Assembly: GCF_006345805.1 (NCBI RefSeq)
Contig: NC_042997.1
Coordinates: 209,436,001-209,500,000, forward strand
Source: Octopus sinensis
Lineage: Eukaryota
DNA length: 64,000 nucleotides
Reading direction: 5' to 3'
Positions 5,301 to 25,200 of the stretch are shown piece by piece. A program made the position numbers. Within the stretch, counting starts at the first letter, position 1, and each line of letters starts with the position of its first letter.

Positions 5301-8300
5301 CAACCATCTAGAGCAGTACTTCTTTAACCATTTTATTTTTCGTAGTGTCCTACCATCTTTTTAATTTGTTGTTATGCTTAGCTTCCATCGATGTGGCGAG
5401 TGAGGTACCACAAATACGGTGGATGAGGATAATTTATAAACTTTACTCTAAAAAATGGATTGTATAAGCTTTTAACAGTGAAATGATAAAAAAGAAATTT
5501 ATAAGACAAGACTTGTAAATTTACAGGCGCAGGAGTGGCTGTGTGGTAAGTAGCTTGCTTCCCAACTACATGGTTCCGGGTTCAGTCCCACTGCGTAAAG
5601 TGTCTTTTATCATAGCCTCGGGCCGACCAAAGCCTTGTGAGTAGATTTGGTAGACGGAAACTGAAAGAAGCCTGTTGTATATATGTATATATATATATAT
5701 GTGTGTGTATATGCTTGTGTGTCTGTGTTTGTCCTCCCACCATCGCTTGACAACCGATGCTGGTGTGTTTACGTCCCCGTAACTTAGCGGTTCGGCAAAA
5801 AGAGACCGATTCAATAAGTACTAGGCTTACAAAGAATAAGTCCTGGAGTCAATTTGCTTGACTATAGGTGGTGCTCCAGCATGGCCACAGTCAAATGACT
5901 GAAACAAGTAAAAGAATAAAAGAAATTGTTTGTAATTAATCATGCATTATCTTATAGCTTTGAGATGTCTGTGATGTGATTGTTTATTCATAGAATGACA
6001 TTGTAGGGTAGGTGTGAAAGGCTGGATCTGGCTGGACTGAACATAAAACAGGTGGAATATTTGGGCGTGTTTGACCGTCAAATGGCCAAAACATTTGAAT
6101 GTCAAATGGTCAAAACAGGTGCAGGCATGGCTACATGGTTGAAAAGCTTCCTTTCCAATCACACAGTTCTGGGTTCTGTTTTATTGCACAACACCTTGAG
6201 CAAGTATCTTCTATTATAGCCCTGGGCCAACTGACTGAGGCACCAGTCGTAAAATAATGTCTCAATAACATAATAGTTTATAGGAAAAACAGACATAAAA
6301 ATGAAAGGAAAAAGAAAGGACCAGAAATAAGAGGAATTCCTTGTTGTACCAAGTGGTTTATAAAAGACCAAGGTGAACGAAACTCAAACAGAACCAAACT
6401 GAGATTGAACTAACTTTCTGCCTTACTGAAACATGTAACTAATCCTACATAGTTGATGGTATTGTTCAGAGTCTTCACTAACCTGGGATAAAGACAGCTT
6501 CTTAGCAGCATTGACAGTATTCTTAAGAAGCATGGCAACAGCAGTAGGGCCGACACCCCCAGGAACTGGTGTAATCCATGATGCAACTGTCTGAGCTTCT
6601 TCGAAACAGACGTCGCCAACAAGATGATCTTTCTTGTTACTATCTGAAATAGAAATTGAAAAGAAAAAAAGAAAAAAGGTATGATAAATATCATTTCACC
6701 TGTCTCATGAAGAGTGTAACCTCTGATAAGCAAACTTTTGGAACAGCTTTCACTGCCTCACAAAGAAGAAAAATGGTCAAGGAATTGGGTGCTTGTTTCC
6801 TTCTGTGAAAGAATTCTTTTGTCTAAAAGATATTTTTATATTTTTGCACACCACTGGTGTGCCGCCATGTAAAAAAGCACCTGTGCTGATGCCGTGTAAT
6901 TAGTACCTTTGCTGAAGACATAAAAATTCACACCTGAGCTGGTGTTATGTATAAAGCACCCAGTACACTCTGTATAGTGGTTGGCGTTAGGAAAGACATC
7001 CATTTGTAGAAACCTTGTTAAAGCAGACAATGGAGTTTGGTGCAGTTCTTAGCCTTACAAGCTCCTGTCCAAGCGAACAACCCATGCCAGCATGGAAAGC
7101 AAATGTTAAGTGATGATGATGATGATGATTTTCTTTGATTCACAAAAACCAGGATTTAACAGGTCTGTAGGTTCAAAGCAGATTTCAATTTCATATGTAT
7201 GTCATCATCATCCTTTTGCATCACCGGTCTGGAACCCCTATCTTGCCCAGGACATCAATCGTCTGGAAGCTGTTCAGCGACGTGCAACCAAAAGAATACC
7301 CTCCATCAGGCATTTGCCATATCCTGAACGCCTTACTTCCCTGGGCATGGACACATTGAAACTCCGACGTCTGGCAGCTGACTTGGCAGACACCCATAAA
7401 ATTATTCACCATCTTACAAACAATAACTCTGAGCACCTTTTCAAACTCCACCCATCTAACACCCGTGGATATATTTACAAAGTAAGAAAACAGCACAGCT
7501 CCCATGACTTCAGGAAACATTTTTTCACGCTGAGAGTTGCTGAAGCGTGGAACAAACTGCCGGCATCGGTTGTTAGTTGTCGGAGCACTGCATCCTTCAA
7601 AACTTCCATGCTTCCTGAGATTCGCCAACACTACACTTGATTTTCTCCCCTCCATACGCACACAAGCATGTTCACTTTCCAGACATTTCTACATTACTGC
7701 ATGTACTTTATATGCACTTTCTGACAAGTTGTGGTGCACCTGAGCACTGTATACAATAATTTCATTATTATCTTATTTTTATTATTATCCATTCTTCCAT
7801 GATTTGTATTATATCTCCTCCATTCTTCTTTACAATGTCTTGGTTATATATTCTGTATCTTGTATGAACTCCAATGAAACAAAATCAGGATTTATCTGTC
7901 AAGTGGAAATACCATTTAATTGTTTATCTTAAGCAATTCCTTTGGTTCCCTATCATTCGATGTGGTTAGCCATATCTGGATTATATCAGAGTGCTAATAA
8001 GGCACTTGTCCGGATTCCAAATTCATATTCCTTTTACATTACACACACACATTCTGATGAAGATGGCAAAGGCACCATTCAACTCAAAGCTATTGTACGT
8101 CACCCATAGCACCATGCAGTCGGACTGAGACCAGAACCACATGGTTGATAAATACAGTTCTTATACACACACAGCTATGCCAGAAGAAAGTAAATATCTT
8201 TAACGAAAGAAGATGGACTTACCGAGAACAGAATTGGTACCACAATCTATGACAATGGCACCAGGCTTTATCCAATCCCCTGGCACCATTTGGGACTTTC

Positions 8301-22200: not shown

Positions 22201-25200
22201 TGCTTCCTTCCAAACGGCCACCCATGAATGGTTCAAAGAGAACATTAACCCTGGCCTAGAATTGGGTGCTGAGGGGGGTATGTGAAGGTGAGGGGCATGC
22301 ACTCTTACCCTTCATTCTGACTCTTTACTAAATCATAAAGCATCAAGTGGCGACACCTATCACCATAAACTGTTTCAAGTGGCGACATCTAGTGACATAA
22401 ACTATCTCAAGTTTAACAACTTCAAGAGCCCCACCACTACCACCACCACCAGCAGCAAAAAAAACGATAGCTACCCTCTTTCCTACTACTAACAACAATG
22501 AGCTCTGAGACAACAACAGAGACTATGTGGTTTGCAAGACATGCTAGAAATAGCAACCAAATCTTCTTTAAATCTACCATCTTGGAAAAGAAGTGCACAT
22601 CGGCAAATATCTTCTTAGATAACCTGCAGAAGGCAGGATGGTCTCAGCTGGAATGGCTTCAATCATGAGCCTACCAATCTATGTTGTTCACCCCTTACTC
22701 TACCACAATGCATTGTGGGTATTGTAATTGGTTAAACCTGGCTGTCCTGGGTTAAGCAATCTTGCTGACAATGTAACAACAGTGTTTAAGAGATAATCCT
22801 CTTTTTCAAAGCAGCTTTAACAACATTTCAAACACTAATCAATATTGATGGAGATATTGCAGAACATCTTGCACTTACTGACACAAGATTTCACCACCTT
22901 CCTGCATTCAGTGCTGAATTCAATACCTCTACCATTCATGGACAAGCTTATATAAAAAAGAAAAAAAAAATGTCACTGCCCATTATCATCATCATCATCA
23001 TCGTTGTCGTTTAACGTCCGCTTTCCATGCTAGCATGGGTCGGACGGTTTGACTGAGGGCTGGTAAAACAGAAGGCTGCACCAGGCTCCAGTCTTGATCT
23101 GGCAGAGTTTTTACAGCTGGATGTCCTTCCTAATGCCAAGCACTCCGAGAGTGTAGTAGGTGCTTTTATGTGCCACTGGTACAGGGTCAGTCAGGCGGTA
23201 CTGGCAATGACCTCGCTCGAATCTTTTTACACATGCCACCAGCACAGGTGCCAGTAAGGCGACGTTGGTAACGATCATGCTCGAATGGTGCCCTTCTACG
23301 TGCCACCGGCACAGAAGCCAGTTGGCTGCTCTGACAACGATCACACTCAGATGGTGCTCTTGGCACCCTACTAGCACGGGCACAAGTGCCAGTAAGGCAG
23401 TGCCACATAAAAAGCACCCAGTACACTCTGTAAGGTGGTTGGTGTTAGGAAGGGCATCTAACCACAGAATCCATGCCAAAGCAGACGAAAAAGAGCCAGG
23501 TGCAGCTCACCACCTCCTGTCAAGCCATCTAACCCATGCCAGCATAGAAAAATGGATGTATGATGATGATGATGGCCCTTTAATGTTCACTTTTCTATCT
23601 TCTTGTGTTTTATTCTGTGTACTATACCTGGGTACCCCACAGTGGAGTCACAAAGCTACCTGGATTACATTGGAGTACCCCATCCTGGAGTCATACTGAC
23701 TATTATATCAGGGTACCTTACAGAGAAGGCACAACACTGACTGCATTATCTGCTGTTGAGTGGCTTAGTGGTTAGGGTGTTCATGAGTTCGATTCCCGGT
23801 AGTGTGTTGCACCCTTGAGGCTATGGAGAAGACACTTGCTCAAGGTGACATGCAGTGGGACTGAACCCGGAACCATGTGGTCGATAAGCAAGCTACTTAC
23901 CACACAGCCACTCCTGCGCCTCATAAAATTTGGAAAAAAAGATTTTGTAAGGGATTATAACACCATCCATGTACAAGAAACTCCCATATTTTTTAATTTA
24001 ATTTTTGATGAAAAAGGGTTCCTTATACACGTTAAAATATGGTAATTATTTTTTATGTGTGTTTGTATGTGGGACGGAAACTACACACACACACACACAC
24101 ACACACAACTACAAATTAAGGAGAAGGATAAACTTGTCAATTGGCAGAAGGTAAAAAGCAGATTTAGATAACTATGTGTGTGTGTGTGTCCCTGTGAGTG
24201 TGTGTGTCCTTGTGCACGTGTGTATATATGTGTGAATGTATACCAGTGTGTTTATATATACATATAGTGTTTAATGTTTACGGTGAGGGTTTGCTCATGG
24301 TGACAAAAGTTTATTTCAAAAGTTACCGATTCCATAACAAGGAAAACTACAGCTCAAAGAAAAGTTGCTGAAGACGGTCGGAGGGATTCCTTCCCTGCTT
24401 CCTTTCTTCTCTCCTTACCTTAATGAGAGCCAAAGATGGTTGGAAACTTTCGGATTCTTTCTTTAACTGTTTAATGCTTTCTCGAAGATCTTTCTTGATC
24501 TCACTGCAAACAGAAGAAAATCTCTCTTTGAAACTGAAGGAAATGCTTCCAAACATTGAAGATCTTAACCATTATTAATGGGAATTTATATATAAGCTTT
24601 ACTGGCAGTTTTCTATGTTAAAACAACAACAATAACACACACACACACACACACTTTCTCTTTGTCACTCTCTCTCTCTCACACACACACTTTCTCTTTG
24701 TCACTCTCTCTCTCTCACACACACACACTTTCTCTTTGTCACTCTCTCTCTCTCACACACACACATATTCCCACATGCTTAATCACATATTCATTCACTC
24801 TCATACAGACCCCACCACCACCACCACAAACTCATTATCCCTCCCCCCCACAAGCACCCTCAAACCCTAAGTGGACTGTCCACTTCATTTACAACCAATT
24901 ACACCTCGTTTAGCCATTCCATCGTCCACAATAAGGCAATCACTCATCAACCGATATCTTAATTACGAATATTTTCATTGGTTCATACATCAATACATCC
25001 TTTATTGGCTTACGTGTATCAATACAATCTCTATTGATCTCTAGATATCAATAAAGTCTTTATTGCTTTATGGCTATAAATTCTTCCATTAGTGTTTGTT
25101 CATTTGTGTTTTTTCTATTCCTTCCATGCCAACACACAATGCGTCCACTCTATCACCGATCCACGCTTCCATTGTCGTCTTGACTAATAACTTTACTAAT

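What the first reader, a model, noticed from the sequence alone, without database searches (positions are those of the whole stretch)
6483..24503. The MTHFD1 dehydrogenase/cyclohydrolase domain looks catalytically degenerate, a possible parallel to vertebrate MTHFD1L
Seen, against human MTHFD1 numbering from memory: LQVG is LIKVG; S49 is lost with a 1-aa deletion; Y52 is H; PCTP (C147) is SSTA; GRSKIVG (R173, S174, G178) is GHNKLTT; CHS (S197) is CHP; GPMT (T279) is GPTA. K56, Q100, D125, IDCG, VGDV and TPVPGGVGP are kept. Established: R173 and S197 contact NADP, including its 2'-phosphate; K56 and Q100 are needed for cyclohydrolase activity; D125 binds folate; vertebrate MTHFD1L is a monofunctional synthetase with a degenerate N-terminal domain. 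The reading frame and all splice sites are intact, so this is not a pseudogene. Inference: an enzyme that has lost or changed its NADP-dependent dehydrogenase activity but may keep cyclohydrolase and synthetase activity. That implies a rewired one-carbon pathway or a subfunctionalised paralog in this lineage.
Basis: partly seen in the sequence, partly recalled or inferred. Interest (0 to 1): 0.7.

Follow-up and report, generated by a model that had tools for sequence, protein, structure and literature searches.

The report
MTHFD1-type enzyme domain with remodelled cofactor site
An intact animal gene for the dehydrogenase/cyclohydrolase part of a folate enzyme keeps its folate-handling residues but has changed residues around the NADP pocket that 74 bacterial relatives never change, so it has probably lost or altered one of its activities.

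Summary
A minus-strand gene of nine coding exons encodes 292 codons of an MTHFD1-type dehydrogenase/cyclohydrolase (D/C) domain. All 17 splice sites are canonical and all phases fit.

Exon-by-exon alignment to human MTHFD1 structures confirms Y52H, a gap at S49, R173H, S174N, V177T, G178T, S197P, M278T and T279A. It adds T191M, A215N, T216V and Q218K. K56, Q100, L101, D125, G273 and G276 are kept.

Against 74 bacterial FolD proteins, five changes fall on columns invariant in 74 of 74: Y52, S174, G178, A215, T279. Four of these line the cofactor site.

The most likely reading is weakened or lost NADP-dependent dehydrogenase with cyclohydrolase possibly kept. This is only a loose parallel to MTHFD1L. 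The synthetase part is not in the window.

No animal sequence database was open. Orthologues, a second gene copy and dN/dS stay unchecked, and activity is untested.

The parts
55489..55523 (-). Coding exon 1: ATG at 55523, 11 codons (M-A-S-I-L-S-G-K-N-I-S) plus 2 bases; donor GTAAGT at 55488..55483.
   Evidence: Phase 2 joins the single leading base of the next exon to give Asp. The fragment aligns to FolD profile columns 3-10, including the 74/74 Gly of column 8. There is no in-frame ATG further up in the open frame 55757..55524.
24419..24503 (-). Exon 2: 1 base plus 28 codons, ending L-A-L-I-K. Acceptor CAG, donor GTAAGG.
   Evidence: Weak collinear match to FolD profile columns 15-39 (3.6 bits). 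No Pfam hit and no family hit in PDB.
18976..19086 (-). Exon 3: 37 codons holding the YxxxK motif, which reads H-x-x-x-K here. His for Y52 at 19062..19060, K56 at 19050..19048, 1-residue gap at S49.
   Evidence: 5 of 6 hits are human MTHFD1 D/C chains, E about 0.009, residues 44-79. Pfam PF00763 positions 43-71, 13.9 bits. Tyr is in 74 of 74 bacterial FolD proteins.
18420..18479 (-). Exon 4: 20 codons, ending in Gln (Q100, 18422..18420).
   Evidence: PF00763 positions 73-92. FolD profile columns 79-98, with Gln in 71 of 74. The PDB search gave only E about 1.
12368..12444 (-). Exon 5: 25 codons plus 2 bases. L101, P102 and D125 (12372..12370) are kept.
   Evidence: 5 of 5 hits are human MTHFD1 D/C chains, residues 101-125, E 3e-4; 15 of 25 identical by my count of the printed alignment.
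10774..10871 (-). Exon 6: 1 base, 32 codons, 1 base. S-S-T-A-A-A at 10816..10799 in place of the family's p-c-t-p-x-G. T148 is kept.
   Evidence: The PDB search matched only human MTHFD2L (7qei, E 0.32) and Bombyx MTHFD (5zf1, E 0.64) within the family. Both read P-A-T-A.
9269..9405 (-). Exon 7: 2 bases plus 45 codons. Dinucleotide loop G-H-N-K-L-T-T-T-P (9370..9344), T191M (9313..9311), C-H-P-D (9301..9290).
   Evidence: human 163-202. PF02882 positions 33-75, 32.8 bits. Ser column 168 and Gly column 172 are 74/74, Val column 171 is 72/74, Thr column 185 is 73/74.
8223..8334 (-). Exon 8: 37 codons plus 1 base. A215N (8307..8305), T216V, Q218K; M221, C236 and G237 are kept; I238T.
   Evidence: the best hit is human MTHFD1 (1dia, 1.6e-9, residues 209-241). 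Ala column 209 is 74/74.
6483..6643 (-). Exon 9: 2 bases plus 53 codons. V-G-D-V and T-P-V-P-G-G-V-G-P are kept; M278T and T279A at 6545..6540. Donor GTTAGT at 6482. If the donor is not used, the frame runs 19 more codons to a stop at 6425..6423.
   Evidence: PF02882 positions 113-158, 61.7 bits. Thr column 267 is 74/74.

Best explanation
This is the intact D/C (FolD-like) portion of a cytosolic-type MTHFD1 homologue of an animal. It has nine exons spread over 49 kb and no targeting presequence.

The folate-binding and cyclohydrolase residues are mostly preserved: K56, Q100, L101, D125, G273, G276 and the T-P-V-P-G-G-V-G-P loop. The exception is Tyr52, which is His.

The dinucleotide pocket has been remodelled:
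- The loop G-R-S-K-I-V-G reads G-H-N-K-L-T-T.
- The 2'-phosphate ligands R173 and S197 are His and Pro.
- A215 is Asn and T279 is Ala.

Inferred: NADP binding, and with it the NADP-dependent dehydrogenase step, is lost or strongly weakened, while the domain still folds, binds folate and may still act as a cyclohydrolase.

Shown here: the gene model, the substitutions and how rare they are in the family. Inferred only: their effect on activity. Unknown: whether a synthetase domain follows, and whether this is the lineage's only copy.
For: Gene model:
- 9 exons, 17 of 17 splice sites GT/AG, phases fit, 292 codons open. An open frame of that length has a chance of about 8e-7 in random sequence.
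- 7 of 8 exons submitted match PF00763 and then PF02882 in collinear order. All 9 fragments lie collinear on a profile of 74 bacterial FolD proteins.

MTHFD1 type:
- Exons 3 and 5 hit only human MTHFD1 within the family.
- Exon 8 hits MTHFD1 at 1.6e-9 against MTHFD2 at 0.056.
- Exon 7 matched 14 chains, none of them MTHFD2 or MTHFD2L.

Rarity of the changes:
- Of 28 columns invariant in 74 of 74 bacterial FolD proteins, this gene differs at 6: Y52H, S174N, G178T, A215N, T279A, and P-to-D at column 102. Human MTHFD1 shares only the last.
- In the 34 conserved columns where human letters were printed, this gene deviates at 13 and human MTHFD1 at 6. This is my hand count.
- The drop in identity to bacteria is largest in exons 7, 6, 4 and 3: 34 vs 52, 28 vs 45, 40 vs 55 and 24 vs 38 percent. 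It is small in exon 9: 57 vs 62 percent.

Literature (passages read):
- PMC3368264 lists the 13 NADP-site and 7 catalytic residues and states that Arg/His/Ser bind the 2'-phosphate.
- PMC9173628 names S197 as the key 2'-phosphate ligand and cofactor-preference determinant.
- PMC4817835 describes R173C in the NADP site in a patient with MTHFD1 deficiency.
- PMC6443876 assigns the Thr equivalent to T279 to NAD binding, and shows that Y49A (equivalent to Y52) abolishes both activities.
Against: - No activity, structure or expression data exist for this protein.
- R173 is not essential in the family: Ala in 13 of 74 and His in 2 of 74 bacterial FolD proteins.
- P146S, P149A and G151A occur in FolD relatives; P149A and G151A also in human MTHFD2L and assayed silkworm MTHFD.
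- The contrast between 6 of 7 catalytic residues kept and 5 of 13 NADP residues kept is not significant: Fisher p = 0.07, or p = 0.33 if I176L and I238T count as kept.
- Y52H could also damage cyclohydrolase, since Y49A in Bombyx abolishes both activities.
- The conserved-column control is bacterial. The only animal controls are the parts of the human chains that the tool printed.
Confidence: 0.5

Rival explanations
1. Cofactor switch rather than loss: the domain is still a dehydrogenase but uses NAD+, or binds the dinucleotide in a different way.
For: - The S197 position is described as the NADP/NAD selectivity determinant (PMC9173628). Here it is Pro, followed by Asp.
- No acidic residue occurs at that following column in 0 of 74 bacterial FolD proteins. 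From general knowledge, not tested here, an acidic residue after the second strand of a Rossmann fold favours NAD.
- G172, P180, T148, H196, M221, C236 and G237 are kept.
- Exons 8 and 9 remain 51-57% identical to bacterial FolD proteins.
Against: - S174, V177/G178 and T279 are also kept in the NAD-using relatives that were printed or described: G-P-M-T in MTHFD2, and G-R-S-R-Q-V-G and Thr281 in the Bombyx enzyme.
- There is no Arg at the 197 position, as MTHFD2 uses to bind phosphate.
Confidence: 0.2
2. The whole D/C domain is catalytically dead and serves only as a scaffold for a downstream synthetase. This would be a true functional analogue of vertebrate MTHFD1L.
For: - Y52H, together with the report that Y49A abolishes both activities in Bombyx MTHFD.
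- The gap at S49.
- The altered cofactor pocket.
- The weak family scores of exons 2, 3 and 6.
Against: - K56, Q100, L101, D125, G273 and G276 are kept.
- Exon 9 is nearly as similar to bacterial FolD proteins as they are to each other, 57 vs 62%. That argues for continued selection on the folate loop.
- There is no mitochondrial presequence.
- MTHFD1L is reported as vertebrate-only.
Confidence: 0.15
3. An ordinary, fully active NADP-dependent trifunctional enzyme; the substitutions are tolerated lineage noise.
For: - Several listed changes occur in FolD homologues, some of them assayed.
- S46A, K53A and Q97A mutants of the Bombyx enzyme keep dehydrogenase activity.
- The gene is intact.
Against: - Five changes fall on columns invariant in 74 of 74 bacterial FolD proteins. 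The four printed for human MTHFD1 are kept there; at T279, MTHFD2 and Leishmania FolD keep G-P-M-T.
- Only 4 of 74 bacteria deviate at 8 or more of the 67 conserved columns, and none of them at these five.
Confidence: 0.08
4. A silent or recently disabled gene copy, that is, an unexpressed paralogue or young pseudogene.
For: - Many hits at invariant positions.
- No expression data.
- The synthetase part and any second copy lie outside what could be seen.
Against: - 292 codons are open over 9 exons and 17 of 17 splice sites are canonical.
- The divergence is selective, not uniform.
Confidence: 0.07

Closest known systems
Human MTHFD1 dehydrogenase/cyclohydrolase domain (DC301; PDB 1A4I, 1DIA, 6ECQ, 9ISE)
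   Same: - Best or only family hit for exons 3, 5 and 8, and near-best for exon 7.
- Collinear, with only small length differences.
- Shares the D-at-104 and C-at-236 peculiarities.
- No presequence.
   Different: Differences here: H52, gap at S49, H173, N174, T177, T178, M191, P197, D198, N215, V216, K218, T278, A279. No synthetase exon is seen in the window.
Vertebrate MTHFD1L N-terminal domain (monofunctional mitochondrial synthetase)
   Same: A FolD-like domain that has diverged at functional residues inside an otherwise intact gene. PMC11064299 describes 'significant divergence' and several 'deleterious mutations'.
   Different: - This gene has no presequence.
- It keeps K56 and the folate-loop motif.
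- MTHFD1L is reported as a vertebrate-specific duplicate.
- No MTHFD1L sequence was available to any call, so a residue-by-residue comparison was not made.
MTHFD2 / MTHFD2L and Bombyx mori MTHFD (bifunctional, NAD or NADP)
   Same: Exon 6 resembles them most, including the P-A-T-A form of the p-c-t-p motif. Exon 9 scores about as well against MTHFD2 as against MTHFD1.
   Different: Exon 7 found none of them among 14 hits. They keep Y, G-R-S-x-x-V-G and G-P-M-T.
Bacterial FolD
   Same: Same two-domain architecture. Median identity is 51-57% over exons 8 and 9.
   Different: Deviates at 18 of 67 highly conserved columns, against a bacterial median of 1.
Spodoptera frugiperda C1-tetrahydrofolate synthase (recalled only: Tremblay and MacKenzie, 1990s)
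   Same: As I recall, an insect case where the NADP-dependent D/C activities of the trifunctional-type protein are missing and an NAD-dependent bifunctional enzyme covers them. It would be an invertebrate precedent.
   Different: Not verified. Three searches found no paper on it (0, 1 unrelated, 0); nothing read.

Membership tests
FolD / MTHFD dehydrogenase-cyclohydrolase family (Pfam PF00763 + PF02882) | Collinear match to the catalytic and the NAD(P)-binding Pfam domains | tested here: met
   7 of 8 exons submitted match in order, PF00763 positions 43-115 then PF02882 positions 3-158. Only 3 of 8 (exons 7, 8, 9) pass the curated cut-off on their own. A whole-protein score was not computed because the joined step was left out.
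FolD / MTHFD dehydrogenase-cyclohydrolase family (Pfam PF00763 + PF02882) | YxxxK motif | tested here: not met
   It reads H-x-x-x-K. Tyr is in 74 of 74 bacterial FolD proteins and Lys in 70 of 74.
FolD / MTHFD dehydrogenase-cyclohydrolase family (Pfam PF00763 + PF02882) | Gln100, Asp125 and the P-G-G-V-G-P folate loop | tested here: met
FolD / MTHFD dehydrogenase-cyclohydrolase family (Pfam PF00763 + PF02882) | Dinucleotide loop G-x-S-x-x-V-G-x-P | tested here: not met
   It reads G-H-N-K-L-T-T-T-P. Ser is 74/74, Val 72/74, Gly 74/74.
MTHFD1 (trifunctional C1-tetrahydrofolate synthase) | Formyltetrahydrofolate synthetase domain fused downstream | not testable with these tools
   - No hallmark motif anywhere in the window.
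- None of the minus-strand open frames of 40 residues or more in 1..6500 (minus-strand entries among the 95 listed) looks like it by eye.
- Exon 9 ends in a phase-0 donor, so the gene may continue beyond base 1.
MTHFD1 (trifunctional C1-tetrahydrofolate synthase) | D/C part closest to MTHFD1 rather than MTHFD2 | tested here: met
   Exons 3, 5 and 8 clearly, and exon 7 within the family apart from one bacterial chain. Exon 6 favours the MTHFD2L type and exon 9 is a tie.
MTHFD1 (trifunctional C1-tetrahydrofolate synthase) | NADP 2'-phosphate ligands Arg173, His196, Ser197 | tested here: not met
   They read His, His, Pro. The ligand list is from PMC3368264.
MTHFD1 (trifunctional C1-tetrahydrofolate synthase) | Cytosolic: no N-terminal presequence | tested here: met
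   The Met lies 4 residues before the conserved x-G-K motif, and there is no upstream in-frame ATG. An unseen upstream coding exon cannot be excluded.
MTHFD1L (vertebrate monofunctional synthetase) | Mitochondrial presequence | tested here: not met
MTHFD1L (vertebrate monofunctional synthetase) | Descent from the vertebrate MTHFD1 duplication | not testable with these tools
   - No animal sequence database was open and the organism is not identified.
- PMC11064299 states that non-vertebrate metazoans lack MTHFD1L.
- Its supplementary copy-number tables could not be seen.
MTHFD2 / MTHFD2L | Arg at the 197-equivalent position binding phosphate; overall best similarity | tested here: not met
   Pro sits at that position. 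Exon 7 found no MTHFD2 among 14 hits.

The most novel reading that the evidence does not exclude
If the host is a coleoid cephalopod, the genomic His-Asn pair at the R173-S174 position (codons CAT AAT, 9367..9362) could be recoded to Arg-Ser by A-to-I editing at 9366 and 9363. That would be 'restorative' editing in the sense of PMC6881472, and it would make the cofactor pocket, and thus dehydrogenase activity, depend on RNA editing.

Only 2 of the 8 deviant residues I checked could be restored this way. The local RNA fold gives no support (z = -0.83). The organism is not established.

A less exotic bold reading is that this is the lineage's only MTHFD1 and works as a cyclohydrolase-synthetase without dehydrogenase. 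I put that at about 0.15-0.2.
Probability: 0.03. Interest if true: 0.8.

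Novelty: new variant of a known kind. Interest (0 to 1): 0.45.

Why it matters
MTHFD1 is the cytosolic hub that interconverts formate, 10-formyl-, methenyl- and methylene-tetrahydrofolate.

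If an animal lineage carries a cytosolic-type MTHFD1 that cannot use NADP, the formyl and methylene pools in the cytosol must be linked some other way. Candidates are an MTHFD2-type enzyme without a presequence, as reported for the silkworm enzyme, or serine hydroxymethyltransferase alone.

It would also be a second, independent example of partial decay of the FolD module inside a fused gene, alongside vertebrate MTHFD1L. Here the cofactor pocket went first and the folate site stayed. That is informative about which half of the module is dispensable.

If the substitutions turn out to be tolerated, they would redefine which 'invariant' residues of the dinucleotide loop are truly required.

Tried and rejected
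Second copy or alternative canonical exons in the window:
- tblastn of each exon peptide against the window found only the exons themselves.
- A six-frame scan of 3169 open frames with the FolD profile found only 8 of the 9 exons, plus two plus-strand hits at E about 7.

Synthetase exons downstream:
- A motif scan found none.

PDB searches with exon 2 and exon 4 gave no usable family hit. Exon 6 gave only E 0.3-0.6 family hits, behind two chance coiled-coil hits.

Statistics: the folate-site versus NADP-site retention contrast is not significant (p = 0.07 or 0.33).

RNA-editing idea: the fold of 9220..9460 is unremarkable; 37 of 200 shuffles fold at least as well.

Literature:
- No paper found on the recalled Spodoptera precedent (0, 1 unrelated, 0).
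- One search was badly designed: 14,359 papers, and none of the 20 listed mentions MTHFD1.
- 'MTHFD1' plus 'octopus' gave 3 papers, none relevant by title.
- Pawelek et al. 2000 on R173/S197 mutants was seen only as a reference-list entry.

Not done:
- The protein-atlas search was not used, because this is a known family.
- The supplementary tables of PMC11064299 (copy numbers in 186 invertebrates) could not be seen and may bear on the single-copy question.

Full report
WHAT IS THERE

The feature is a gene on the minus strand.

Stop-to-stop frames and the codon-by-codon print of eight frames give eight exons between 24503 and 6483. All have AG acceptors, GT donors and matching phases:
- 24503..24419
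- 19086..18976
- 18479..18420
- 12444..12368
- 10871..10774
- 9405..9269
- 8334..8223
- 6643..6483

A motif scan and the sequence itself add a first coding exon at 55523..55489. It has ATG, eleven codons and two further bases, then the donor GTAAGT. Those two bases join the single leading base of the exon at 24503 to make Asp, so the phase fits exactly.

Together the nine exons hold 876 bases, or 292 codons, with 17 of 17 splice sites canonical. An open frame of that length has a probability of about 8e-7 in random sequence.

The first intron is 31 kb. It carries a reverse-transcriptase open frame on the other strand.

Every search was made exon by exon. No whole-protein search, score or fold was made.

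FAMILY

In Pfam, 7 of 8 exons submitted match the FolD catalytic domain (PF00763, positions 43-115) and then the NAD(P)-binding domain (PF02882, positions 3-158), in collinear order. Exon 2 has no hit. Only exons 7, 8 and 9 pass the curated cut-off alone.

I fetched 80 bacterial loci with exon 9 and translated their FolD frames. I kept 74, dropping 6 for length or truncation, and built a profile from them. All nine fragments lie on that profile in order: columns 3-10, 15-39, 49-77, 79-98, 103-121, 124-152, 155-198, 200-234 and 236-282.

Neither a tblastn of the exon peptides nor a six-frame profile scan of 3169 open frames finds a second copy or alternative canonical exons in the window.

WHICH BRANCH OF THE FAMILY

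Against the PDB:
- Exon 3 hits only human MTHFD1 D/C chains within the family (5 of 6 hits).
- Exon 5 likewise (5 of 5 hits).
- Exon 8 hits MTHFD1 at 1.6e-9 against MTHFD2 at 0.056.
- Exon 7 hits an Acinetobacter FolD, then human MTHFD1, and no MTHFD2 or MTHFD2L among 14 hits.
- Exon 9 is a near tie: Leishmania 7e-15, MTHFD2 4e-13, MTHFD1 6e-12.
- Exon 6 weakly prefers MTHFD2L and the Bombyx enzyme.

So the D/C part is of MTHFD1 type.

The protein begins four residues before the conserved x-G-K motif, with no in-frame ATG further up. It therefore has no presequence.

The synthetase part is not in the window. No hallmark motif occurs on either strand. No minus-strand frame in 1..6500 looks like it. 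Exon 9 ends in a phase-0 donor; read through, the frame stops 19 codons later.

CHECKING THE LISTED SUBSTITUTIONS

The printed alignments fix the human numbering.

| Exon | Human residues | Result |
|---|---|---|
| 3 | 44-79 | Gap at S49, Y52 to His, K56 kept |
| 5 | 101-125 | L101, P102 and D125 kept |
| 7 | 163-202 | R173H, S174N, I176L, V177T, G178T, A179T, T191M, S197P, K198D; G172, K175, P180, C195 and H196 kept |
| 8 | 209-241 | A215N, T216V, Q218K, I238T; G217, M221, C236 and G237 kept |
| 9 | 252-294 | M278T, T279A; G273 and G276 kept |

For exon 9 the human coordinates come from the hit table. The letters printed there were those of Leishmania and MTHFD2.

Exon 6 reads S-S-T-A-A-A where the family consensus reads p-c-t-p-x-G. 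No call printed the human letters for this stretch.

'LIKVG' is not an insertion. The stretch has the same length as the family consensus.

HOW UNUSUAL THE CHANGES ARE

In the 74 bacterial FolD proteins, 67 profile columns are at least 90% identical. hmmalign counted 21 deviations for this gene. Seven of those are unaligned exon edges; placed by hand, four of them truly differ. The figure is therefore 18 of 67. The bacteria have a median of 1 and a maximum of 15.

Of the 28 columns invariant in 74 of 74, this gene differs at six:
- Y52H
- S174N
- G178T
- A215N
- T279A
- Pro to Asp at column 102, which human MTHFD1 shares

Near-invariant columns also hit are V177 (72/74), T191 (73/74), S49 (71/74) and M278 (69/74).

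As an animal control, I counted by hand the 34 conserved columns for which human letters were printed. Human MTHFD1 deviates at 6 and this gene at 13. Five are shared, eight are this gene's alone and one is human's alone.

In the 21 conserved columns of exon 9, the printed MTHFD2 deviates at 0 and Leishmania at 1, by my hand count. This gene deviates at 2.

The four bacterial outliers with 8 to 15 deviations keep all five of the invariant residues that this gene has lost.

NOT EVERY LISTED CHANGE IS TELLING

- The R173 column reads R 56, A 13, H 2, V 2, C 1.
- The P146 column has Ser in 9 of 74.
- The C147 column has Ala in 8 of 74.
- The P149 column has Ala in 6 of 74.
- The G151 column has Ala in 4 of 74.
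- MTHFD2L and the Bombyx enzyme read P-A-T-A. The Bombyx enzyme has measured dehydrogenase and cyclohydrolase activity.
- S46A in the Bombyx enzyme, the equivalent of S49, keeps activity.

The weight of the case therefore rests on S174N, V177T, G178T, A215N and T279A, together with S197P and Y52H.

WHAT THE RESIDUES DO (passages read, not whole papers)

- PMC3368264 lists 13 NADP-site residues of the human enzyme and 7 residues for substrate binding and catalysis. It says Arg, His and Ser bind the 2'-phosphate, and that Tyr52 stacks on the p-aminobenzoate ring. Here 5 of the 13 are kept and 6 of the 7.
- PMC9173628 calls S197 a key 2'-phosphate ligand and a determinant of NADP or NAD preference.
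- PMC4817835 reports R173C in the NADP site in a patient with MTHFD1 deficiency.
- PMC6443876 assigns the Bombyx Thr281, which aligns with T279 by the coordinates, to NAD binding. It finds no detectable activity for Y49A.

The contrast between the two sites is suggestive but not significant: Fisher p = 0.07, or 0.33 if I176L and I238T are counted as kept.

Divergence is uneven. Median identity to the bacteria, compared with bacteria against each other, is:
- exon 7: 34 vs 52%
- exon 6: 28 vs 45%
- exon 4: 40 vs 55%
- exon 3: 24 vs 38%
- exon 8: 51 vs 60%
- exon 9: 57 vs 62%

A domain in free decay should not keep exon 9 that well.

INTERPRETATION

Most likely (about 0.5), the domain still folds and binds folate but binds NADP poorly or not at all. 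The NADP-dependent dehydrogenase would then be lost or much reduced, and the cyclohydrolase possibly kept.

Rivals:
- A switch to NAD or another binding mode (0.2). The Pro-Asp pair at 197-198 fits this, and no acidic residue occurs at that column in 0 of 74 bacteria. However, the residues changed in the loop are also kept by the NAD-using relatives.
- A fully dead scaffold domain (0.15).
- A normal enzyme (0.08).
- A silent gene copy (0.07).

COMPARISON WITH MTHFD1L

PMC11064299 (abstract, passages, and section 7 read in full) states that non-vertebrate metazoans have MTHFD1 and MTHFD2 but not MTHFD1L. It says MTHFD1L arose by duplication in vertebrates and carries a diverged FolD region.

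This gene has no presequence and keeps the catalytic Lys and the folate loop. It is therefore at most a partial, independent parallel and not a member of that group.

I recall an insect precedent: Spodoptera frugiperda cells lacking the NADP-dependent activities. Three searches found no paper on it, so it stays a recollection.

'MTHFD1' with 'octopus' gave 3 papers, none on the subject by title.

A BOLDER READING

The codons at the R173 and S174 positions are CAT AAT. A-to-I editing of their middle bases (9366, 9363) would read Arg-Ser. That is the kind of restorative editing discussed for coleoid cephalopods in PMC6881472.

The other six deviant codons I checked cannot be restored this way. 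The local fold is unremarkable (z = -0.83). The organism is not established. I give this reading about 3%.

LIMITS

- No animal protein or genome database was open, so there are no orthologues, no tree, no dN/dS and no search for a second copy.
- The organism was not identified.
- The supplementary copy-number tables of PMC11064299 could not be seen.
- No activity or expression data exist.
- The joined protein was neither searched nor folded.

Noticed in passing
window 38121..39728 (+), 4314..4820 (-), 58284..58622 (+): Retroelement remains. A 535-residue open frame with a reverse-transcriptase domain (RVT_1, 1.8e-32) and a PHD-like finger sits inside intron 1 on the opposite strand. A related PHD-finger fragment lies downstream of exon 9, and a zf-RVT piece lies upstream of exon 1.
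   Followed up: partly
window 1907..2437, 16805..17233, 34651..34991, 40133..40587, 21640..22008 and 42068..42399: Tandem arrays with periods of 235, 73, 66/132 and 63 bp, and a 184-bp unit present at two places. Around the 73-bp array, frames stay open on both strands from about 15.6 to 18.1 kb, inside the intron between exons 4 and 5.
   Followed up: no
loci L005, L032, L050, L058 (bacterial FolD frames around position 1501): Four of the 74 bacterial FolD proteins carry Gln in place of the catalytic Lys, together with Ala at the P149 and G151 columns. They deviate at 8-15 of the conserved columns. They may be a distinct FolD-like subgroup, in Omnitrophota, Planctomycetota and a candidate phylum.
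   Followed up: no
window 9367..9362 (-): The codons CAT AAT at the R173/S174 positions are each one A-to-G change away from Arg and Ser. The local RNA fold gives no sign of a strong duplex.
   Followed up: partly
window 6482..6423 (-): If the donor after exon 9 is not used, the frame continues for 19 codons to a stop. That would give a stand-alone D/C protein without a synthetase.
   Followed up: no
many places, both strands (e.g. 8591..8830, 20405..20809, 40020..40733): A short interspersed repeat recurs throughout the window. Its translations keep returning the same peptide-like strings in the open-frame lists.
   Followed up: no
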